Source: Enterobacteria phage vB_EcoM_IME540. Taken from it: 64,000 nucleotides of DNA. A program made the translations under genes and the position numbers. The notes under the pieces are model-generated. The model saw only the letters and a program-made list of their open reading frames with translations, made no database searches and was not told the origin of the DNA. The DNA lies in sequence record MT150133.1, one strand, 5' to 3'. Positions 18,953-42,216 of the stretch are shown piece by piece. The stretch's first letter is position 1. Each line of letters opens with the position of its first letter.

Positions 18953-19027
18953 TGGTATCCCGCCCTGGGATCGAACCAGGACCGCAAACTTAGAAGGATC
19001 GTATGCTATCCATTACACCAGCGGGAC
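18953..19027 (-). tRNA. tRNA-Arg (anticodon UCU), CCA encoded
   Basis: Reverse complement GTCCCGC...GATCCTTCTAAGTTTG...CCTGGTTCGATCCCAGG GCGGGAT ACCA folds as cloverleaf: 7-bp acceptor, T-arm with TTCGATC loop, anticodon loop CTTCTAA; one T-T mismatch in anticodon stem. Confidence 0.7.
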
Positions 19028-19032
19028 GTAAT

Positions 19033-19698
19033 TCAAAATTTTATTTTACGGCCTTTATTCCAACCTTCAGGAATAATATCCGTTTTGTTAATACGTTTAG
19101 AAACTTTTTCTTCTAAAGAATGAATCCACATTTTTCCATATCCGGAATTATTTTCACCTTGTTGGTGTTTATTTCTGGCGTGAGATTCTTTCATTTTATT
19201 TTTGGTTTCATCTGAATGGGTCTTACCCAAGAAAGATTTAGTATTTGAAAATTTCTCTCTATACTTAGGATTATCCCAAAGTTGTTTAAACCTTTCCGAA
19301 CCCATTTTACGATATTTTTCTTTAAGGTCTGGGTCGTTCTCAAATCTGGTTTTAAAAGCGGCAACTCCTTTTAAGGAAGCTTCTTTCTTTTTATCTAAAT
19401 ATTCTTCAGTGTTTAAATGGTCCCAACCACCTTCACCACCTAATTTCAAATTATAAACATCAGGGCGCTTTAAAAACTCTTCAGTCACAATATTCTTTTC
19501 TGACTCAAACATAGAGGTTTTATCGTCAAAGAACTCTAATATTTCTTTAGAGAAATTTTCTATACCGTATTTGACCTGGGCCCTTTTTAAGAGTTTACCA
19601 GAACCAAAATATGCATCATTCAAATTTTCGGTTGAATGGGCGCCTATATAGATTTTATTATTAATTTTGTTTGTTATTTTATAAGTGTAATGGAACAT
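19033..19698 (-). CDS. GIY-YIG homing endonuclease-like protein (segB-like, within tRNA cluster)
   Basis: N-terminus YTYKITNKINNKIYIGAHST...YFGSG; sits between two tRNA genes as segB does in T4. Confidence 0.7.
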   Translation of the reverse strand: MFHYTYKITNKINNKIYIGAHSTENLNDAYFGSGKLLKRAQVKYGIENFSKEILEFFDDKTSMFESEKNIVTEEFLKRPDVYNLKLGGEGGWDHLNTEEYLDKKKEASLKGVAAFKTRFENDPDLKEKYRKMGSERFKQLWDNPKYREKFSNTKSFLGKTHSDETKNKMKESHARNKHQQGENNSGYGKMWIHSLEEKVSKRINKTDIIPEGWNKGRKIKF

Positions 19699-19739: not shown

Positions 19740-19810
19740 TGGCCCTGGGTGGAATCGAACCACCATCCAGCGATTATGAGTCGCTCGCTTGACCGTCCAG
19801 CTACAGGGCC
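19740..19810 (-). tRNA. tRNA with anticodon CAU (Ile2-type or Met); CCA not encoded
   Basis: Reverse complement GGCCCTG TA GCTGGACGGTCAAGC G AGCGA CTCATAA TCGCT GGATG GGTGG TTCGATT CCACC CAGGGCC A; perfect anticodon and T stems. Confidence 0.75.
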
Positions 19811-23911: not shown

Positions 23912-24748
23912 TTAAGAATTCTTCCATACTTTCTGAGCTGAGTAACGCTTACCTTTCGATACAAATTGCTGAAGCGGTAATCCTATTACATTAGCCCAAT
24001 CAGACGGTTTTATCTCTACTAAAGGTCCCTTGATATTTCCAGGGATATAAGCTTTAATCATCACGTCGGCGCCAGCGAATCCTTTTACCTTACTCCAATC
24101 GATTTTTAATTTAGTCGAGTTCGTAATGGTAGGCGTACTCGCGTATTGCTTCAGCAATTCTTCCAGAAATTGTTGACGTGCTTTAGGTGGAATATAGTGT
24201 AAGTTCAGTCCGTACATTAAATTATGCTTACCTAACCCAAGATAAATTATTAAAGGATATTTGTCCCAGTATGGTAGGGTATCCTTATGTTTGGCATCAT
24301 AGATATAAGCATAAAGCTTACCAGGAGACGGTTTAGATACCTGGTGTCCACGAATTCCTTTCTTTAATGTTTCTGTAAACCATTTAGCTGATTTATTGTT
24401 TATGGCAGCGCCTTCGTTAGCAATCTTATCGCGAATACTCTTTCTAAAACTATTCACCAAAATTAATTGACGTTCTGCTTTGGTTAATTTATTGCCAGGT
24501 TTCTTCTGAAGTTTTTCAACCTGTACAGCAGTTTTAATTCGACTCGAGTATCGAGACATCGCAGATGTAAAGCTAGAATACTTGATGCCTTTATCTTCAG
24601 CGAATTTCTTAGCCGAAACACCTTTAGCCTTAGCGTTGGCATATTCAACGCCTAAAGTTATCCATTGTTGTTCTGAACGAGTAGGCTTGGAACCTTTTGT
24701 AGTTTCAGTAGCCTCGTTGATGTAAGAAAATATACTCATCCTTTCCAT
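23912..24748 (-). CDS. 2: gp2 DNA end-protector protein
   Basis: 278 aa; synteny between 3 and 4; size matches T4 gp2. Confidence 0.75.
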
Positions 24749-25185
24749 CCTAATTTTTTCAGTGAGTTTTCGGTAATCAATCTGAAATTAATTCCCATTT
24801 TATCTGCTGTAGCTTTAGCAGCTTTCCATTTATCTTTATTTACACTCCATGTATAATGTTCGTTGATATATCTCTTTTTAGCAGCTGTAGTCATTTTAGC
24901 AGGCGCCGCTGGAGGATGGGTCTCTTTAAAAGGTTTGACTTCGAAAAAGAATTGTTGACCATTGTCGAACTTCACCCAGAAGTCCATAAAATACCGACGT
25001 TTCTTTCCATCAGCGTTACTAAAATATGGAATCACAACCTCTTCCGAGTTCCACTGGACGACATTAGGATGGTTATCAAGCCAACGCATAAGCCATGCTT
25101 CCCAAGAGGAACGATATTGGATTTTCTTCCAATCACCTTTATATTTTTGTAAGTTTGTAGGTTTAAATTTCCCTGAGTAGGCCAT
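24736..25185 (-). CDS. 4: gp4 head completion protein
   Basis: 149 aa; size/synteny; divergent from gene 53 across palindromic late promoter region. Confidence 0.85.
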
Positions 25186-25195
25186 AGTGCCTCCT

Positions 25196-25203
25196 TATAA
25201 ATA
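25196..25203 (+). promoter_or_regulatory. late promoter (TATAAATA) for gene 53
   Basis: Exact TATAAATA 28 nt upstream of ATG. Confidence 0.6.
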
Positions 25204-25210
25204 TTAATAT

Positions 25211-25218
25211 TATTTATA
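25211..25218 (-). promoter_or_regulatory. late promoter (TATAAATA) for gene 4
   Basis: Exact TATAAATA on minus strand 26 nt upstream of gene 4 ATG. Confidence 0.6.
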
Positions 25219-25230
25219 CTCGGAGGCACT

Positions 25231-25833
25231 ATGCTCTTCTCATTTTTCGATCCCATCGATTACGAATCAAAAACAGTCAAGCCAGATTCCGGCTCATTAA
25301 CTGATGCCGATGTACTGAGCGTACCGATGACTGATATATTTAGAAACTATAAAGAATATTTTGATAAAGTGGCTAAAAATTATACACTTAAAACATATTA
25401 TATCAGTGGGGCCCCTCGTCCAGAAGAATTAGCCCATCAACTTTATGGTAACGTGCAATTATATTGGGTCCTTTTAATGTGTAACAATATCTATGACCCT
25501 TATTACGGCTGGATTACAGGCCAAGAATCTGCGTATCAAGCAGCTATTCAACGTTATGCTACTGCAGGCGGAAACCAAGTCCTTTATCATGTCAATGAAA
25601 AGGGTGAGAAATTCTGGAATCTAGTAAATACTCCGGAAAATCCTTATACTTGGTACGATAAAGGTGATACAGAAAAACGTTATCCTCAATATGAAGGTCC
25701 TTTGGCTGCAGTAGATATTTACGAGGACGCCATTCGTAAAAATGAATATAAGCGCGAAATAAAGATTATAGACCCTAATGACATCGAGTCCTTTGTTTCC
25801 GCTTTAATTAGAGAAATGGAGAAGTCACTCTAA
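25231..25833 (+). CDS. 53: gp53 baseplate wedge protein
   Basis: 200 aa; MLFSFFDPIDYESKTV...PMTDIFRNYKEYF...YYISGAPRPEELA... close to T4 gp53. Confidence 0.9.
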   Translation: MLFSFFDPIDYESKTVKPDSGSLTDADVLSVPMTDIFRNYKEYFDKVAKNYTLKTYYISGAPRPEELAHQLYGNVQLYWVLLMCNNIYDPYYGWITGQESAYQAAIQRYATAGGNQVLYHVNEKGEKFWNLVNTPENPYTWYDKGDTEKRYPQYEGPLAAVDIYEDAIRKNEYKREIKIIDPNDIESFVSALIREMEKSL

Positions 25834-26468
25834 TGTTTTATTACGTCTATAAAATAACCAATATAATTAATGGTAAATTTTATATCGGTGCTCATAGTAC
25901 ATCAAATATGGATGACGGTTATATGGGCTCAGGTAAATTAATTAAACGCGCTATACTAAAATATGGCATTGAAAATTTCAAAAAAGAAATATTAAAATTT
26001 GTTGATTCTAAAAAAGAAATGTATGAACTCGAAAAAGAACTTGTTGTCCTTACTGAAAATTCATACAATTTAAAACCGGGCGGTTCCGGTGGGTTTTTAA
26101 AACATGATAACTTTAAAGGCAGGTCCCATAGTCAGAAAACCAAAGATATTATGAGCGCTAATAACTCAGGCAAAAACAATCCTATGTATGGTAGAAAACG
26201 AGACCAACACGGAGAAAAAGCACCTAATTATGGTAAAAAGTGCTCTGAGGCTAAAAGAAAATTACTTTCTGAAAAATCTAAATCCTATTTTGAAAACCTT
26301 CAAACCATAACTAAAAATCTCGGCTTTGGTCCTACATCGGTTGAAACTAGATATGTATCAAGACATATTAAAAAGCTAGGATTAGATTTTTATAAATTTA
26401 ATCGTGATATAACAGAAACTAATGTTTCCATAGTTAGAAATATTTTAGAACAAAGGAAAGCGCTATGA
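25833..26468 (+). CDS. GIY-YIG homing endonuclease-like protein inserted between genes 53 and 5
   Basis: N-terminus YVYKITNIINGKFYIGAHST...YMGSG, paralogous to 19033-19698; NPMYG motif. Confidence 0.7.
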   Translation: MFYYVYKITNIINGKFYIGAHSTSNMDDGYMGSGKLIKRAILKYGIENFKKEILKFVDSKKEMYELEKELVVLTENSYNLKPGGSGGFLKHDNFKGRSHSQKTKDIMSANNSGKNNPMYGRKRDQHGEKAPNYGKKCSEAKRKLLSEKSKSYFENLQTITKNLGFGPTSVETRYVSRHIKKLGLDFYKFNRDITETNVSIVRNILEQRKAL

Positions 26469-28207
26469 TTAACATGTCTGATAATGTAAGTTGGTTCGTC
26501 GGTGTGGTTGAAGACCGTATGGACCCACTCCAACAAGGACGCGTTCGAGTTCGTGTCTGGGGCCTGCATCCTTACGAAAAGGTCCAAGGTCCTGTAAAAG
26601 GCCTTCGTACAGAGGATTTACCGTGGATGTCCGTATTAATGCCTACATCTTCTGCCTCTGTTTCTGGTATCCAAACCGCTATGACTGGTATGGTTCCAGG
26701 TACTCAGGTTTATGGGCACTTTCTTGATAAGTGGAAATTAAACGGGCTTGTCCTCGGTACATATGGTTCCGCTTCAAGACAAAAGGCTAATCCTAATGAA
26801 GGTTTTAGTGACCCGACAGGTCAATACCCACTTTATTTGGGTAATGATGCTGCAGCACTAAACCGAGGTGGTGAAGTTGGATACGATGCCACTTCTAACG
26901 TAATACAAGATGCAAACACCGATGTAGGTATTAACCCAGACGGTTTGGATTTGAGCCAAGTCAAGCCTGATGATAATCCTAATTTCACAATAGAAAACAT
27001 GCTTCATCGTGATGAAGGGCTTAGACTGAAGGTATATTGGGATACCGAAGGTTATCCTACTATAGGTATAGGCCACCTTATCACACCACAACCTATTAGA
27101 GATATGAATCGAATAAACAAAATATTATCTAATCAGGTAGGACGAGAAGTTAAAGGTAACCCTGGTGCAATATCAATGGATGAGGCTTCTAAATTATTCC
27201 AAGAAGACCTTAAAAAAGTCCAAAACGATATAGGTCGGCATAGTGTTGTAGGTCCTGTTTACAATAAAGAAAACCGTTCAAGACAAATGGCTCTTGAAAA
27301 CATGGCTTTCCAAATGGGATTAGGTGGATTGGCTAAATTCCGTGGAATGCTTAGTGCAATGCTAATAGGCGATTATAAAAAGGCATTTGAGGAAGCTCGT
27401 AATTCAGTATGGTTTAACCAAACTAAAGGTCGCGCATCAAGGGTGTCAATGATTATCCTCACAGGTAACATGGAATCATATGGTATTATGGCCCCTAAAG
27501 AAAGGTCATTTAATGGCCGTTCGTATAGAATGATTCAAACCTTTGTGGCCCCTACAAATTCAGACCCTGCCGACCCGTGGACTCCAGAAGACACAAGGAT
27601 TCTTTTTAAAGAACCTGATTCTAGTTATAAAGGCGAATATCCATATGTCCAAACCATGCAAACTGAAGGCGGGCATATCCAAGAATTCGATAATACCCCA
27701 GGGCAAGAACGATACCGTTTAATCCATCCTACCGGTAGTTATGAAGAAGTTGCTCCTGACGGACGTAAAACTTCTAAGACGGTAGCCGATGGTTATTATA
27801 TGACCCAAGGCGATTCAAATACTTATGTTGGTGGTAATAATAAGGTCAATATAGGCGGCGATGAAACCTATTATAATATGGCAAACGTTCGTCGTCAAAC
27901 TGACGGGTCTGAAAGCATCCATATTCGTGGTAATGAAACTAAAACAGTAGAAGGTGACGGAACCCTTATTGTTAAAGGAAACGTAACAATTCTTGTCGAG
28001 GGTAGTGCTGATATAACTGTTAAGGGCGATGCTAAAACATTAGTTGAAGGCAATCATGACTATACCGTAAATGGAAACGTTAAATGGTCTGTAAATGGAA
28101 ACGTTGATATGACTGTTGCAGGTAATTGGTCTGAAACTATGTCAACTATGAGTTCTATTGCATCAGGTCAATATACTATTGATGGTTCGAGGATTGACAT
28201 TGGCTAA
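26465..28207 (+). CDS. 5: gp5 baseplate hub/tail lysozyme (cell-puncturing device)
   Basis: 580 aa; internal lysozyme domain (YWDTEGYPTIGIGHLI) and C-terminal beta-helix VxGxxxxx repeats. Confidence 0.92.
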   Translation: MINMSDNVSWFVGVVEDRMDPLQQGRVRVRVWGLHPYEKVQGPVKGLRTEDLPWMSVLMPTSSASVSGIQTAMTGMVPGTQVYGHFLDKWKLNGLVLGTYGSASRQKANPNEGFSDPTGQYPLYLGNDAAALNRGGEVGYDATSNVIQDANTDVGINPDGLDLSQVKPDDNPNFTIENMLHRDEGLRLKVYWDTEGYPTIGIGHLITPQPIRDMNRINKILSNQVGREVKGNPGAISMDEASKLFQEDLKKVQNDIGRHSVVGPVYNKENRSRQMALENMAFQMGLGGLAKFRGMLSAMLIGDYKKAFEEARNSVWFNQTKGRASRVSMIILTGNMESYGIMAPKERSFNGRSYRMIQTFVAPTNSDPADPWTPEDTRILFKEPDSSYKGEYPYVQTMQTEGGHIQEFDNTPGQERYRLIHPTGSYEEVAPDGRKTSKTVADGYYMTQGDSNTYVGGNNKVNIGGDETYYNMANVRRQTDGSESIHIRGNETKTVEGDGTLIVKGNVTILVEGSADITVKGDAKTLVEGNHDYTVNGNVKWSVNGNVDMTVAGNWSETMSTMSSIASGQYTIDGSRIDIG

Positions 28208-28241
28208 TATCCTACCGATGAGCACTGATTTAGGAGATTCC

Positions 28242-28739
28242 ATGGAAGGAAGCTCTATCGATGTTACGTTTACCGCTCAACTAGAAACAAACGAAACATT
28301 AGTCGAAATAAATATAACAGAATATGAGCCAACAGAAGGCATCACAGTTGATGGAGCTCATTTATATGGAACCTACGAATCGGTATTTGGATTCTCTGAG
28401 GATGCATTAAAATACCGATTAGGTGACGAATTTAAAACTGCTGGTTCATGGAAAGATTTACCGGAGGACGAGAGCACCCAATTATACCTCTGGAAAGCCC
28501 CTAGTAATCTCCAGAAGACTTTTTCTTATACGGTCACATTAATCTATGACTTTCAGGAAGAGACGTCAGGAGGTGATACAGGGAACTCAGGAGGTAGTAA
28601 TTCCAGAGCCGGTAACGAAACCGATCCGCCTCCTGCTCCAATAAGAAAAACCCTTACTAAGGTTTATACCAAGGTTATAGTGGGTAATTGGAGTCGCTGG
28701 GGAGACCAATTAAGAGAATATGTATATGCGAGGCCATAA
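28242..28739 (+). CDS. gp5.1-like hypothetical protein
   Basis: Start at ATG 28242 preceded by AGGAG; position between 5 and 5.4. Confidence 0.5.
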
Positions 28740-40053: not shown

Positions 40054-42216
40054 ATGATTAACAAATTGGAACTTAGTGAGTTACCATTTGTTGACGGCGT
40101 ACCTGATGCTCCTCAAAAGCGTATCCAATGGATACGCGAGGGTGATTGTATGTCTGCAGCAAAAACAAAATACGGCAATGAAGGTAATTTGAACGCTGCT
40201 GCTTTAGGAGTTCAGAAAAACGTTGAAGCTCTTGATGCGAATGATTTGAAAACAGCAGATAAAGTTAACGAACTGGTAGAAAACGTTAATAATATCAATG
40301 ATGCCTTAGAAATGGCTACTGATATTTCCGTCATCCAGCAAATTGAGAAAAACCGTGTTGATATCGTGGACCTTAAAAAGGTTACTTCAGAAACAACAGG
40401 AAAATTGGATGAGTTAACCACCAATTTTGATTACTTGCGTGAAGACGTTGGTTACCATGACCCTTTACAAGACGGCCCATATTTAACTGTACGTGAAAAT
40501 ATTGTTCTTCTTAAAACCGAAATAGGTCATTATGAAAACCAGGATATAAATGGCAATCCATTGCCTCCGGGTGAAACCAATGAAGCCACTGGTATGAAAC
40601 GTCGCATCATTGATAATACCACTCAATTGGTCGACCATCGTCTTCGCATTGATACCCTTGAAAGGAATTATGAAGATTCTGACGTCGGGCAACTAGGTAT
40701 TAAATTAAATGAAATTCGTGCTGAACTTGGCCCTCATTCTGATACTGTAGGTAAACAACCGGCTTATACCCGAATTTCTGTATTAGAAACGGCTGCAATT
40801 AATTTCAATACATCTATCGACGAAATTAAGACTAATATTGATTTCTCCGGTATGCCTATAAAGGACCGAGTAACTACTTTAGAAAGCAAAACTCTTACCC
40901 TAGAAAATTCAGTCAACGTTGATTTAAAACCTCGTGTAACATCAATTGAAACCCAAATAGGATCCGAATCAACTCCTACTTCTATTAATGGGCGTTTGAG
41001 CGGTCTTCGCACCGATGTAAATGACCTTAAAACCATAGTAGGTGTTAGTTCAAGTGATGGCTTACGTTTCCAAGTTACTGATATCAACCGCCGTTTAGGT
41101 GGTGAAGTATCTCCGGCAGCTGGGACCATTAATAAGCGTTTAAATGACGTTATTATCCAAGCAAACCAATCTACTTCATCTATCCAGGATATTCAAGTAG
41201 AAATTGGAAATAACCAATCCGGTATTAAGGGTACTTTACTTAAACTCACCAATAAGGTTGACGGGACAAACCCTAACGGTGCTACTGTAGAAGAACGTGG
41301 TCTTATTAACGCGGTTACTTCTTTAGAAACCCAGATGTTAGGTAAGTTGAATGATGCCCCTTCCGATGGTAAACTTTATGCTCGTCGTAATGCTACATGG
41401 ACCGAAGTTCCTAACGTTTCTACTGAAATAGAATCTGTTAAGGATGATTTAGTTGTTACCGATGGTAAAGTGGCAGCTTTAACTTCTAGAGTCGATGGTA
41501 ATGATACCTCAATTTCTTCTCTTGATACTCGCACCGGTGCATTAAACACTTCGGTTGGTGAGATTAAAGCAGATATCGTTACTATAAAGGCTAAAGACCT
41601 TGAACAGGACAGTCGTTTAACAGCACTTGAATCTAGTGATGTTACTGTTAATGGAAAAATAACGGCACTTGAATCTAAAACCGATACCACCGATTCTGAT
41701 GTTACCGCTTTGGCCTTAGATGTGAGTTCTATAGAATCACAATTAATTCCTATTAAAGCTGATATAACTAAGAACAAAGGCGATATAGTTACTTTAACCG
41801 GACGAGTAGCTGCTAATGAAGGTGAAATTGCCGATATTAAATTAGACACCGCTAAAATAGCTCCTTTGGCTACTCGAGTCACTACTGCTGAAGGTAAAAT
41901 TACCACCTTAGAAACAGGTTTGGCAGCAGTTAAAGTTGAATCCGATAAAGTTGCAGGAATCAATACCCGTTTAGGTACGGTAGAAGGTAAAGTTGGTACT
42001 CTTGAAACAGGTTTAGCAGCGGTTAAAGTTGAATCTGATAAAGTTGCTGATTTAGGAACCCGTTTAACTGCGGCTGAAGGTAAAATCACTGCACTAGAAA
42101 CTGAGTTGGCCAAACGCCCTCCTGTTGCTCCTGTTGCTGATGGACTTCCATATGTTCTTGTTGATAATGCGTGGGTGCTATTGTCAGATTTTGTGACTTT
42201 AAACCCAGCACCATAA
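40054..42216 (+). CDS. wac: fibritin (whisker antigen control), extended
   Basis: 720 aa coiled-coil; N-terminus ELSELPFVDGVPDA; C-terminal foldon-like ...DGLPYVLVDNAWVLLSDFV; internal 93-bp tandem repeat. Confidence 0.88.
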   Translation: MINKLELSELPFVDGVPDAPQKRIQWIREGDCMSAAKTKYGNEGNLNAAALGVQKNVEALDANDLKTADKVNELVENVNNINDALEMATDISVIQQIEKNRVDIVDLKKVTSETTGKLDELTTNFDYLREDVGYHDPLQDGPYLTVRENIVLLKTEIGHYENQDINGNPLPPGETNEATGMKRRIIDNTTQLVDHRLRIDTLERNYEDSDVGQLGIKLNEIRAELGPHSDTVGKQPAYTRISVLETAAINFNTSIDEIKTNIDFSGMPIKDRVTTLESKTLTLENSVNVDLKPRVTSIETQIGSESTPTSINGRLSGLRTDVNDLKTIVGVSSSDGLRFQVTDINRRLGGEVSPAAGTINKRLNDVIIQANQSTSSIQDIQVEIGNNQSGIKGTLLKLTNKVDGTNPNGATVEERGLINAVTSLETQMLGKLNDAPSDGKLYARRNATWTEVPNVSTEIESVKDDLVVTDGKVAALTSRVDGNDTSISSLDTRTGALNTSVGEIKADIVTIKAKDLEQDSRLTALESSDVTVNGKITALESKTDTTDSDVTALALDVSSIESQLIPIKADITKNKGDIVTLTGRVAANEGEIADIKLDTAKIAPLATRVTTAEGKITTLETGLAAVKVESDKVAGINTRLGTVEGKVGTLETGLAAVKVESDKVADLGTRLTAAEGKITALETELAKRPPVAPVADGLPYVLVDNAWVLLSDFVTLNPAP
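41890..42110 (+). repeat. in-frame 93-bp tandem repeat (~2.4 units) inside wac
   Basis: GAAGGTAAA(A/G)T... units start at 41890, 41983 and 42076; encode repeated TLETGLAAVKVESDKVA segments. Confidence 0.7.

What the first reader, a model, noticed from the sequence alone, without database searches (positions are those of the whole stretch)
25833..26468. Homing endonuclease inserted between baseplate genes 53 and 5
The GIY-YIG gene sits in the late operon with start/stop overlaps on both sides (stop of 53 overlaps its ATG; its stop overlaps the gene 5 ATG). In T4, genes 53 and 5 are adjacent. It is paralogous to the segB-like gene at 19033-19698.
Basis: partly seen in the sequence, partly recalled or inferred. 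Interest (0 to 1): 0.4.

Follow-up and report, generated by a model that had tools for sequence, protein, structure and literature searches.

The report
Selfish endonuclease gene between baseplate genes
A small selfish DNA-cutting-enzyme gene of a well-known phage type has been slotted exactly into the junction between two essential tail-baseplate genes of a T4-like coliphage; comparison with relatives shows that it moved recently between phage genera, but it is an ordinary member of a known class.

Summary
ORF 25833-26468 (+, 211 aa) has a GIY-YIG nuclease domain and a NUMOD3 motif. It lies between gene 53 (25231-25833) and gene 5 (26465-28207), with TAATG and ATGA overlaps.

The window is a Dhakavirus (JS98/WG01-like). 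Only 5 GenBank phages carry this gene, all at this same site:
- two Dhakavirus (FB, KIT01);
- three Gaprivervirus (P896, P479, PSD2001).

About 66 other close relatives lack it, and so do T4, T6 and Mosigvirus, where 53 and 5 abut directly.

The gene is 99.4-99.7% identical in DNA between KIT01 and the Gaprivervirus phages. Their gp53 genes are only 72-75% identical and gp5 about 85%, so the transfer across genera was recent. The window and FB carry a second allele (84% DNA identity), with dN/dS 0.08 between alleles.

The insert carries a recoded copy of the last gp53 codons. Its own last 9-12 nt are the resident gp53 3' end, including the ribosome-binding site for gene 5.

It has no promoter of its own and sits in the late 53-5 transcription unit. 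Conversion tracts are very short, which suggests cleavage at or near the junction.

Verdict: a new, unnamed member of the Seg-like free-standing homing endonucleases. Cleavage and homing are untested.

The parts
25196..25203 (+). T4-type late promoter consensus TATAAATA upstream of gene 53. It is the only one available to drive 53, the HEG and gene 5.
   Evidence: exact TATAAATA at 25196 (+). There is none between 25219 and 42241, so none within or after the HEG. 20 matches in the window against 7.6 expected by chance.
25231..25833 (+). Gene 53 (baseplate wedge subunit), intact, 200 aa.
   Evidence: Pfam Phage_gp53, E 8e-73; 3 differences from HEG-less PSD9 over the first 588 nt.
25818..25835 (+). 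Left junction (GGAGAAGTCACTCTAATG). This is a recoded copy of the last gp53 codons (E-K-S-L-stop) with a TAATG overlap. It contains the GGAG that serves as the Shine-Dalgarno sequence of gene 5 in empty-site genomes.
   Evidence: three substitutions relative to PSD9/WG01 (GGAGAAAGCCCTCTAATG). Allele B has GGAAAAGGCACTCTAATG in all four carriers, whatever the backbone.
25833..26468 (+). Free-standing Seg-like GIY-YIG homing endonuclease gene, 211 aa, allele A.
25833..26096 (+). GIY-YIG catalytic domain (aa 1-88).
   Evidence: Pfam GIY-YIG, aa 3-79; all 25 invariant family columns are kept (Y6, Y17, G19, E67, N79 and others); pLDDT 93-97; the best PDB fold match is the I-TevI catalytic domain (1mk0, probability 1.00).
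26118..26207 (+). NUMOD3 DNA-binding motif in the linker (aa 96-125).
   Evidence: NUMOD3, E 1.6e-11, above the curated cut-off.
26247..26465 (+). C-terminal helical region (aa 139-211), the presumed target-recognition domain. It is found only in this orthologue group.
   Evidence: four predicted helices, low confidence; no Pfam family; does not align with other Seg-like proteins; highest dN between alleles (0.16, against 0.016 in the nuclease domain).
26454..26468 (+). Right junction (AGGAAAGCGCTATGA). The last codons of the HEG (K-A-L-stop) are the native 3' end of gene 53 of an ATGA-type genome. They supply the Shine-Dalgarno sequence (AGGA, 7-nt spacer) and the ATGA coupling for gene 5.
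   Evidence: This stretch varies with the resident lineage while the HEG body stays 99.5% identical: P896 = SP18 (GGCTTT); PSD2001 = VR20/CJ20 (GGCTCT); KIT01, the window and FB = ABTNLsp5 (AAAGCGCT).
26465..28207 (+). Gene 5 (baseplate hub / tail lysozyme), intact, 580 aa.
   Evidence: Gp5_OB (E 4e-61), Phage_lysozyme and Gp5_C; phrog_430, E 6e-244.
26506..26971 (+). Divergent patch in the 5' part of gene 5, about 10% different from the otherwise near-identical HEG-less relatives PSD9 and WG01. It may be a patchy co-conversion tract from the HEG donor, or unrelated mosaicism.
   Evidence: FB shares the 26572-26971 part. DNA on both sides (gp53 and 27001-27500) has 0-3 differences per 250 nt. 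The patch is not contiguous with the HEG, and the genome is mosaic elsewhere.
19033..19698 (-). Paralogous Seg-like GIY-YIG gene between tRNA-Arg and tRNA-Met (the segB position). It is not part of the element and is listed for context.
   Evidence: absent from PSD9.

Best explanation
This is a free-standing homing endonuclease gene (HEG) of the T-even 'Seg-like' GIY-YIG class. It has invaded the junction between baseplate genes 53 and 5 of a Dhakavirus.

**Shown**
- The protein has an intact GIY-YIG nuclease domain, a NUMOD3 linker motif and a private C-terminal helical region.
- The gene is a promoter-less cassette inside the late 53-5 transcription unit.
- Its ATG takes over the TAATG re-initiation context and the GGAG that gene 5 uses in empty-site genomes.
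- Its 3' end re-creates a Shine-Dalgarno sequence plus ATGA overlap for gene 5, so both essential genes stay intact and translationally coupled.
- It is present in a small minority of close relatives, always at this site.
- One allele is nearly identical across two genera whose flanks are 15-28% diverged.

**Inferred mechanism (intronless homing)**
1. A carrier and a non-carrier phage co-infect the same cell.
2. Late in infection the enzyme makes a double-strand break in the HEG-less 53/5 junction.
3. The phage's recombination-dependent repair copies the cassette from the carrier genome into the break.
4. Insertion splits the target into two half-sites about 630 bp apart, which protects the carrier.

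**Cleavage position (inferred).** In recipients the foreign tract ends at most about 35 nt upstream of the cassette and about 0-12 nt downstream. The cleavage site is therefore probably within a few tens of bp of the insertion point. That resembles intron-encoded enzymes such as I-TevI more than SegF or SegG.
For: - **Domains and fold:**
- **Presence/absence:** 5 of 89 megablast-level relatives are occupied. Empty sites were read directly in PSD9, WG01, JS98, ABTNLsp5, VR20, SP18 and CJ20. 779 records cover at least 80% of the 600-bp probe across the empty junction, and all but one of the 60 rows listed (P896, an occupied site) match it as a single piece.
- **Orthologues only at this site:** tblastn finds full-length hits at 88% identity or more in just 5 records, all between 53 and 5.
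- **Cross-genus transfer:** HEG DNA is 99.4-99.7% identical between KIT01 and P896/P479/PSD2001, against 72-75% for gp53 and about 85% for gp5. The four proteins are identical.
- **Independent acquisitions:** dS between the two HEG alleles is 0.90. That exceeds dS between their host flanks (0.44 and 0.28).
- **Purifying selection:** dN/dS is 0.08.
- **Composition:** GC 30.4% against 37.7% and 41.3%.
- **Junction anatomy and short tracts:**. PSD2001 differs from HEG-less VR20 by 0-2 nt per 100 nt for 700 nt into gene 5, and by at most 1 per 98 nt over the last 196 nt of the colinear part of gp53.
- **Promoter:** a late promoter lies only upstream of gene 53. No RNA structure hides the ribosome-binding site (z = -0.35).
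- **Background knowledge:** promoter-less seg cassettes, UAAUGA-type coupling and intronless homing are described in PMC2988022. HEGs next to essential genes are described in PMC10448857.
Against: - No cleavage or inheritance data exist for this protein or any close orthologue. The nearest characterised relative, T4 SegC, is only about 45% identical, and only over the N-terminal 145 aa.
- No equivalent of I-TevI Arg27 could be assigned by sequence.
- The closest carrier, FB, has a +1 frameshift in an A-run that truncates the protein to 170 aa. This could be decay or a sequencing error.
- The element is rare. There are no extra copies in IMG/VR or JGI metagenomes, and only two close clusters among 5.8 billion proteins. 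It is therefore not sweeping through the sampled populations.
- The short-tract argument for a nearby cleavage site assumes that later recombination has not erased longer tracts.
- Characterised Seg enzymes usually cut hundreds of bp from their gene (PMC2988022).
Confidence: 0.82

Rival explanations
1. It is a defunct or decaying HEG. The gene arrived by homing in the past but no longer cuts any target present in the population, and it now persists only by vertical descent and occasional general recombination.
For: - FB's copy is frameshifted.
- The element is rare.
- The HEG life-cycle model predicts decay after fixation or loss of targets.
Against: - The window copy is full length and keeps every invariant family residue.
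- dN/dS is 0.08 between alleles.
- Allele B is 99.4-99.7% identical across two genera, which implies very recent movement.
- Empty target junctions are abundant among co-circulating relatives from the same kind of source, poultry and duck.
Confidence: 0.1
2. The gene was carried passively, or was mobilised in trans. It spread between Dhakavirus and Gaprivervirus by ordinary homologous recombination in the conserved 53/5 flanks, or by breaks made by another nuclease, without its own enzyme acting on this site. The enzyme may cut elsewhere, or may act in competition or marker exclusion against other phages.
For: - T-even genomes are highly mosaic; the window differs from PSD9 in patches along its length.
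- Trans-homing is documented (T4 mobE / I-TevIII, PMC2790892, listed).
- P479 and PSD2001 carry a second HEG just upstream of gene 4.
Against: - The transferred tract is trimmed almost exactly to the cassette: about 35 nt or less on the left and about 0-12 nt on the right. The flanks are only 72-85% identical. That is unlikely for random crossovers and expected for repair of a break at the site.
- Two diverged alleles occupy exactly the same site in different backbones.
Confidence: 0.06
3. The gene is ancestral and was repeatedly deleted. It was present between 53 and 5 in the common ancestor and has been lost precisely in most lineages.
For: It occupies the same site in two genera.
Against: - It is absent from about 99% of Tevenvirinae with a contiguous 53/5 junction, including all other genera.
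- Its cross-genus identity (99.5%) is far higher than that of the flanks (72-85%).
- Its GC content is lower than that of the flanks.
- Empty sites show two clean native junction types with no remnants.
Confidence: 0.02

Closest known systems
T4 SegC (free-standing GIY-YIG homing endonuclease between genes 5.1 and 5.3)
   Same: - It is the best T4 match: about 45% identity over aa 2-145, located between 5.1 and 5.4 in T4_ev151.
- It has the same Seg-type GIY-YIG domain.
- It is also a promoter-less cassette overlapping the upstream ORF in the late baseplate gene cluster (PMC2988022).
   Different: - It occupies a different site (5.1/5.3, against 53/5 here).
- The C-terminal DNA-binding region is unrelated.
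- It overlaps its upstream ORF by 20 bp, rather than the 1-nt TAATG overlap here.
- It is not an orthologue.
T4 SegF and SegG (the 'intronless homing' paradigm)
   Same: - They are free-standing GIY-YIG HEGs inserted between conserved or essential genes.
- Their distribution among relatives is sporadic.
- They are inherited through double-strand-break repair with co-conversion of flanking markers (PMC2988022, PMC2993671).
   Different: - SegF and SegG cut hundreds of bp from their own gene and drag long co-conversion tracts.
- Here the foreign tract in recipients ends within about 35 nt of the cassette on the left and about 12 nt on the right. That implies a cleavage site at or near the insertion point (inference).
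I-TevI (intron-encoded GIY-YIG endonuclease of the T4 td intron)
   Same: - Its catalytic domain is the best structural match (1mk0).
- It has the same modular layout: nuclease, flexible linker, DNA-binding module.
- It cleaves within about 25 bp of the insertion site, as inferred here.
   Different: - There is no intron here: Rfam finds none and both flanking genes are intact.
- TIGR01453 scores below its cut-off (53.9 against 56.05).
- No zinc finger or identifiable helix-turn-helix was detected.
T4 MobE (HNH) at the nrdA/nrdB junction
   Same: The start codon overlaps the upstream stop (UAAUGA). This suggests low-level translation by termination-reinitiation inside an essential operon (PMC2988022).
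   Different: [quoted passage not shown]

Membership tests
Seg-like free-standing GIY-YIG homing endonucleases of T4-like phages | GIY-YIG catalytic domain with the family's conserved residues | tested here: met
   - Pfam GIY-YIG, E 1.6e-5, 25.6 bits against a cut-off of 22.6.
- SegE_GIY-YIG scores 23.7, just under its cut-off of 25.
- All 25 invariant columns of a 28-member alignment are retained, including Y6, Y17, G19, E67 and N79.
- The model has pLDDT above 93 for aa 1-80.
- The top fold hit is I-TevI.
- No Arg27 equivalent could be assigned.
Seg-like free-standing GIY-YIG homing endonucleases of T4-like phages | Free-standing: not inside an intron or intein, and lying between intact host genes | tested here: met
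   gp53 and gp5 are full length. No Rfam intron is found in 24500-27500.
Seg-like free-standing GIY-YIG homing endonucleases of T4-like phages | Modular C-terminal DNA-binding region (NUMOD-type motifs) that differs between paralogues | tested here: met
   NUMOD3, E 1.6e-11. The C-terminal halves of the two window paralogues do not align. The C-terminal 70 aa are found only in this orthologue group.
Seg-like free-standing GIY-YIG homing endonucleases of T4-like phages | Sporadic presence or absence among close relatives, with a clean empty site | tested here: met
   5 of 89 records are occupied. Empty junctions were read in seven genomes. PSD9 is 99% identical in gp53 yet lacks the gene.
Seg-like free-standing GIY-YIG homing endonucleases of T4-like phages | Evidence of horizontal movement independent of the flanks | tested here: met
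   The HEG is 99.4-99.7% identical across genera, against 72-85% for the flanks. dS between the alleles exceeds dS of the flanks.
Seg-like free-standing GIY-YIG homing endonucleases of T4-like phages | Site-specific double-strand cleavage of the HEG-less allele | not testable with these tools
   This needs an in-vitro cleavage assay on 53/5 junction DNA from WG01, PSD9 or VR20.
Seg-like free-standing GIY-YIG homing endonucleases of T4-like phages | Preferential (super-Mendelian) inheritance in mixed infection, with co-conversion of flanking markers | not testable with these tools
   Only indirect evidence is available: a divergent gene 5 patch at 26506-26971 next to the HEG. It is ambiguous because the genome is mosaic.
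Seg-like free-standing GIY-YIG homing endonucleases of T4-like phages | Cleavage site typically hundreds of bp from the HEG insertion site | tested here: inconclusive
   Conversion tracts in KIT01 and PSD2001 are at most about 35 nt on the left and about 12 nt on the right. This argues for a nearby site, but it is an inference from natural recombinants.
T4 SegC orthologue | Full-length similarity and a conserved genomic position (5.1/5.3) | tested here: not met
   Identity is 45% over aa 2-145 only, and the position differs.
Group I intron-encoded GIY-YIG endonuclease (TIGR01453) | Score above the curated cut-off, and location inside a group I intron | tested here: not met
   53.9 bits against a cut-off of 56.05. 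No intron was detected.

The most novel reading that the evidence does not exclude
This may be a free-standing HEG that behaves like an intron-encoded one without an intron. It would cut at its own insertion point, the 53/5 junction.

Its ends would be built to be harmless to the host:
- a recoded duplicate of the last gp53 codons on the left;
- read-through into the native gp53 3' end, including the gene 5 ribosome-binding site, on the right.

This arrangement would preserve translational coupling of two essential late genes.

The two alleles differ mostly in the DNA-binding domain (dN 0.16, against 0.016 in the nuclease domain). They may be adapted to the two native junction types, TAATG and ATGA.
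Probability: 0.35. Interest if true: 0.45.

Novelty: new member of a known kind. Interest (0 to 1): 0.33.

Why it matters
- **Annotation.** It adds a previously unnamed Seg-like homing endonuclease and a new homing site, the 53/5 baseplate junction, to the T-even catalogue. The gene is labelled 'hypothetical protein' in all five GenBank records.
- **A natural experiment.** The same cassette sits at 99.5% identity in two genera. A second allele occupies the same site, one carrier copy is frameshifted, and many empty sites exist. Together these cover the invasion, spread and decay stages of the HEG life cycle.
- **A usable test system.** Dhakavirus and Gaprivervirus phages are being developed for phage therapy, so strains are at hand.
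- **Seamless insertion.** The junction anatomy shows how a selfish gene can enter a translationally coupled junction of essential genes without cost.
- **Practical point.** Such elements promote localised exchange of baseplate-hub sequence between co-infecting therapeutic phages.

None of this changes current understanding of homing endonucleases.

Tried and rejected
- **PDB sequence search.** It gave no hits. The fold search gave only weak E-values (0.012), although I-TevI was the specific top hit.
- **C-terminal domain.** The AlphaFold model is low-confidence beyond aa 90 and Pfam finds no family for the last 70 aa. The DNA-binding domain could not be classified.
- **Hidden ribosome-binding site.** I looked for an RNA hairpin sequestering it, as in I-TevI, segB and mobE. 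There is none (z = -0.35).
- **Internal late promoter for gene 5.** None found.
- **Terminator-like hairpin at 26075-26090**. It is not conserved in allele B (-9.3 against -4.6 kcal/mol), so I rejected it as functional.
- **Fixed differences in the flanks.** I looked for positions separating all HEG+ from all HEG- genomes in the first 1500 nt of gene 5 and the colinear last 168 nt of gp53 (nt 421-588), which could mark a distant, immunised cleavage site. There are none. The only consistent differences lie in the last ~15 nt of gp53, at the junction itself.
- **Gene 5 patch 26506-26971 as a co-conversion tract.** This is plausible but not demonstrable. The patch is not contiguous with the HEG, it differs between the window and FB in its first 100 nt, and the genome is mosaic elsewhere.
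- **Extra 584 bp at 41492-42076 relative to PSD9.** I suspected another HEG. It lies inside the fibritin ORF and is a length polymorphism.
- **More copies.** Exact-word scans of IMG/VR and JGI metagenomes found nothing.
- **Literature.** Searches found no description of an HEG between genes 53 and 5.
Full report
**1. The observation**

The ORF 25833-26468 (+) is real. It encodes 211 aa and starts with ATG.

The sequence reads ...CTC TAATG TTT... at its 5' end. The TAA stop of the upstream gene (25831-25833) therefore shares one base with the ATG. At the 3' end it reads ...GCG CT ATGA TTAAC..., so the TGA stop overlaps the downstream ATG at 26465.

Pfam identifies both neighbours and the ORF itself:
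- upstream gene: Phage_gp53, E 8e-73;
- downstream gene: gp5 (Gp5_OB E 4e-61, lysozyme, Gp5_C);
- the ORF: NUMOD3 (E 1.6e-11) and GIY-YIG (E 1.6e-5), both above their curated cut-offs.

PHROGs places the ORF in phrog_314, 'homing endonuclease', E 3.5e-49.

The paralogue quoted at 19033-19698 exists but is on the minus strand. It shares 61% identity with the ORF over the first 92 aa only. It lies between tRNA-Arg and tRNA-Met, the context of T4 segB according to PMC2988022.

**2. What the window is, and who carries the gene**

Megablast of 25000-27300 against 50,697 phage records finds 89 relatives. They belong to the genera Dhakavirus (JS98, WG01, IME08...) and Gaprivervirus. The closest is Dhakavirus vB_EcoM_FB, at 98.2%.

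Only five records cover the whole query:
- FB and KIT01 (Dhakavirus);
- P896, P479 and PSD2001 (Gaprivervirus).

The 35 other records listed match in two pieces that are adjacent in the record, with a span about 632 bp shorter than the query.

In the annotated empty sites, gene 53 runs directly into gene 5 (PSD9, WG01, JS98, ABTNLsp5, VR20, SP18, CJ20).

A 600-bp probe across the empty junction gave these results:
- 779 records cover at least 80% of it.
- Of the 60 rows listed, all but P896 (an occupied site) match as a single piece, including T4, T6, RB10 and Mosigvirus.
- About 71 records are at least 80% identical. Occupancy is therefore roughly 7% within the two genera and under 1% across the subfamily.

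tblastn with the protein finds full-length hits at 88% identity or more only in the same five records. The next best hits are 40-46% identical and partial.

In a collection of 5.8 billion proteins there are just two close clusters: allele B, and FB's truncated copy. Exact-word scans of IMG/VR and JGI metagenomes found no further copies.

**3. Evidence for recent mobility**

The four proteins of KIT01, P896, P479 and PSD2001 are identical. Their DNA is 99.4-99.7% identical. Yet gp53 of KIT01 is only 72-75% identical to gp53 of the Gaprivervirus phages, and gp5 about 85%.

A sliding-window comparison shows 100% identity beginning about 30 nt before the HEG ATG and falling away at the gene 5 ATG.

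The window and FB carry a second allele (A), 84% identical in DNA and 88% in protein to allele B. Three points follow:
- dS between the alleles is 0.90. This exceeds dS between their host backbones (0.44 for gp53, 0.28 for gp5), so the two Dhakavirus lineages acquired different alleles independently.
- dN/dS is 0.08 overall.
- By region, dN/dS is 0.03 in the nuclease domain and 0.15 in the C-terminal region. The protein has been under purifying selection.

GC content is 30.4%, against 37.7% and 41.3% in the flanks.

The 'ancestral gene, repeatedly lost' alternative can be dismissed on this evidence.

**4. Anatomy of the junctions**

Empty sites come in two native forms:

| Type | Sequence | Genomes |
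|---|---|---|
| TAATG | ...GAAATGGAGAAAGCCCTCTAATGATTAAC... | PSD9, WG01, JS98 |
| ATGA | ...GAAATGGAGAAGGCTCTATGATTAAT... | VR20, SP18, CJ20 |
| ATGA | ...GGAAAAAGCGCTATGA... | ABTNLsp5 |

In carriers, the left end of the cassette is a TAATG-type copy of the last gp53 codons with a few substitutions:
- allele B: GGAAAAGGCACTCTAATG;
- allele A: GGAGAAGTCACTCTAATG, so gp53 ends ...EKSL.

The right end is an ATGA-type gp53 3' end, read in frame as the HEG's last residues (...RKAL-stop).

That right-hand stretch of 9-12 nt varies with the resident lineage, while the body of the HEG does not:
- P896 has GGCTTT, like SP18.
- PSD2001 has GGCTCT, like VR20 and CJ20.
- KIT01, the window and FB have AAAGCGCT, like ABTNLsp5.

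The cassette is therefore flanked by an imperfect direct repeat, about 15 nt long, of the gp53 terminus. This has three consequences:
- gp53 stays intact.
- The HEG uses the GGAG and TAATG re-initiation context that gene 5 uses in TAATG-type genomes.
- Gene 5 receives a fresh Shine-Dalgarno sequence (AGGA, 7-nt spacer) and an ATGA overlap.

Relative to the native junction, the insert is 632 bp (TAATG type) or 635 bp (ATGA type).

**5. Expression**

An exact T4 late-promoter consensus, TATAAATA, lies at 25196 (+), 28 nt upstream of the gene 53 ATG. There is no other on the plus strand until 42242.

The HEG is therefore a promoter-less cassette in the late 53-5 unit. Edgell et al. describe the same for segC, segF and segG (PMC2988022).

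No RNA structure hides its start. A terminator-like hairpin inside the ORF (26075-26090) is not conserved in allele B. I regard it as fortuitous.

**6. The protein**

- **Conserved residues.** The first 88 aa align without difficulty with 27 Seg-like homologues and keep all 25 invariant positions: Y6, K7, Y17, G19, H21, G32-S33-G34-K35, E67, Y78-N79, G83-G84 and others.
- **Model and fold.** AlphaFold models this domain at pLDDT 93-97. Its best PDB match is the I-TevI catalytic domain (1mk0: probability 1.00, TM 0.58 on the target, E 0.012).
- **Alignment to I-TevI.** It leaves the Arg27 region gapped.
- **Rest of the protein.** Beyond aa 90 there is a NUMOD3 motif (aa 96-125), then a helical C-terminal region that matches no Pfam family. 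That region is shared only with allele B. It is presumably the target-recognition module.
- **Closest T4 relative.** This is the gene between 5.1 and 5.4, i.e. segC. Identity is about 45% over aa 2-145 only, so it is not an orthologue.
- **Intron check.** TIGR01453 (group I intron endonuclease) scores just below its cut-off, and Rfam finds no intron.

**7. How it most likely works**

What is shown is the anatomy, the distribution and the transfer signature.

What is inferred is classic intronless homing (Belle et al. 2002 and Liu et al. 2003, as cited in PMC2993671 and PMC2988022):
1. The endonuclease is made late in infection.
2. It cleaves the HEG-less genome in a mixed infection.
3. Recombination-dependent repair copies the cassette from the carrier genome.

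One feature departs from the Seg paradigm, and it is inferred rather than shown. Characterised Seg enzymes cut hundreds of bp from their gene, so long flanking tracts are co-converted. Here the tracts are very short:
- KIT01 keeps Dhakavirus sequence right up to about 35 nt upstream of the cassette and about 0-12 nt downstream of it.
- PSD2001 differs from HEG-less VR20 by only 0-2 nt per 100 nt for 700 nt into gene 5.
- PSD2001 differs from VR20 by at most 1 nt per 98 nt over the last 196 nt of the colinear part of gp53.

No position in the flanks separates all carriers from all non-carriers, except at the junction itself.

The simplest reading is that the break is made within a few tens of bp of the 53/5 junction, and that insertion itself splits and immunises the target. 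Later recombination could have erased longer tracts, so this stays a hypothesis.

In the window and FB, gene 5 carries a patch about 10% divergent (26506-26971; shared with FB from 26572). It is bounded by DNA nearly identical to PSD9 and WG01. It may be a patchy co-conversion tract from an unsampled donor. However, it is not contiguous with the cassette, and the genome is mosaic elsewhere. I do not count it as evidence.

**8. Caveats**

- No biochemical or genetic data exist for this orthologue group.
- FB's copy has an extra A in a five-A run (window about 26312) that truncates it to 170 aa. This is either real decay or a homopolymer sequencing error.
- The element is rare in the databases searched.

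**9. Comparison with the literature, and verdict**

Searches found no description of an HEG between genes 53 and 5. All five GenBank copies are annotated 'hypothetical protein'.

The general phenomenon is well established: Seg-like HEGs scattered unevenly among close T4 relatives, often beside essential genes (PMC2988022, PMC2993671, PMC10448857).

The finding is correct and cleanly supported. It is a new, unnamed member of a known kind. The seamless junction design and the probable insertion-site-proximal target are interesting details. Interest is modest.

Noticed in passing
window 19033-19698 (-), with tRNA-Arg 18953-19027 and tRNA-Met 19740-19810: The second Seg-like GIY-YIG gene sits between two tRNA genes, the T4 segB context. 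It is itself a presence/absence polymorphism: PSD9 has only about 68 bp where the window has about 770 bp.
   Followed up: partly
L005 1-613 (P479) and L006 1-614 (PSD2001), minus strand, immediately upstream of gene 4: These two Gaprivervirus carriers have another annotated 'homing endonuclease' next to gene 4. Genes 4 and 53 are therefore bracketed by two HEGs, an arrangement like the 'HEG islands' of PMC10448857.
   Followed up: no
window 26075-26090 (+): There is a terminator-like GC hairpin followed by a T-run inside the HEG, over the conserved PGGSGGF codons. It folds at -9.3 kcal/mol in allele A but only -4.6 in allele B, so it is probably not functional.
   Followed up: yes
window 26506-26564: A short run of substitutions in gene 5 is unique to the window; even FB lacks it. 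It includes CC at 26563-26564, which changes WGMHPY to WGLHPY in the gp5 OB domain.
   Followed up: partly
window 41492-42076, inside ORF 40054-42216 (+): The window has about 584 bp more than PSD9 within the fibritin (wac)-like coiled-coil gene. It is a repeat-length polymorphism, not a mobile gene.
   Followed up: partly
L001 2467-4302 (FB), L008 (SP18), L009 (WG01), L012 (CJ20), compared with window 28158-28739: Gene 5 comes in two lengths (1743 and 1788 bp). In FB, WG01, SP18 and CJ20 it is followed by a gene of about 2 kb (RB43 ORF205w-like in SP18's annotation; only its start lies in these loci), rather than by 5.1. The region downstream of gene 5 is a second variable locus.
   Followed up: no
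window 25196-25218: Two exact late-promoter consensus sequences (TATAAATA) face away from each other in the 45-bp gap between genes 4 and 53. They lie at 25196 (+) and 25211 (-).
   Followed up: no
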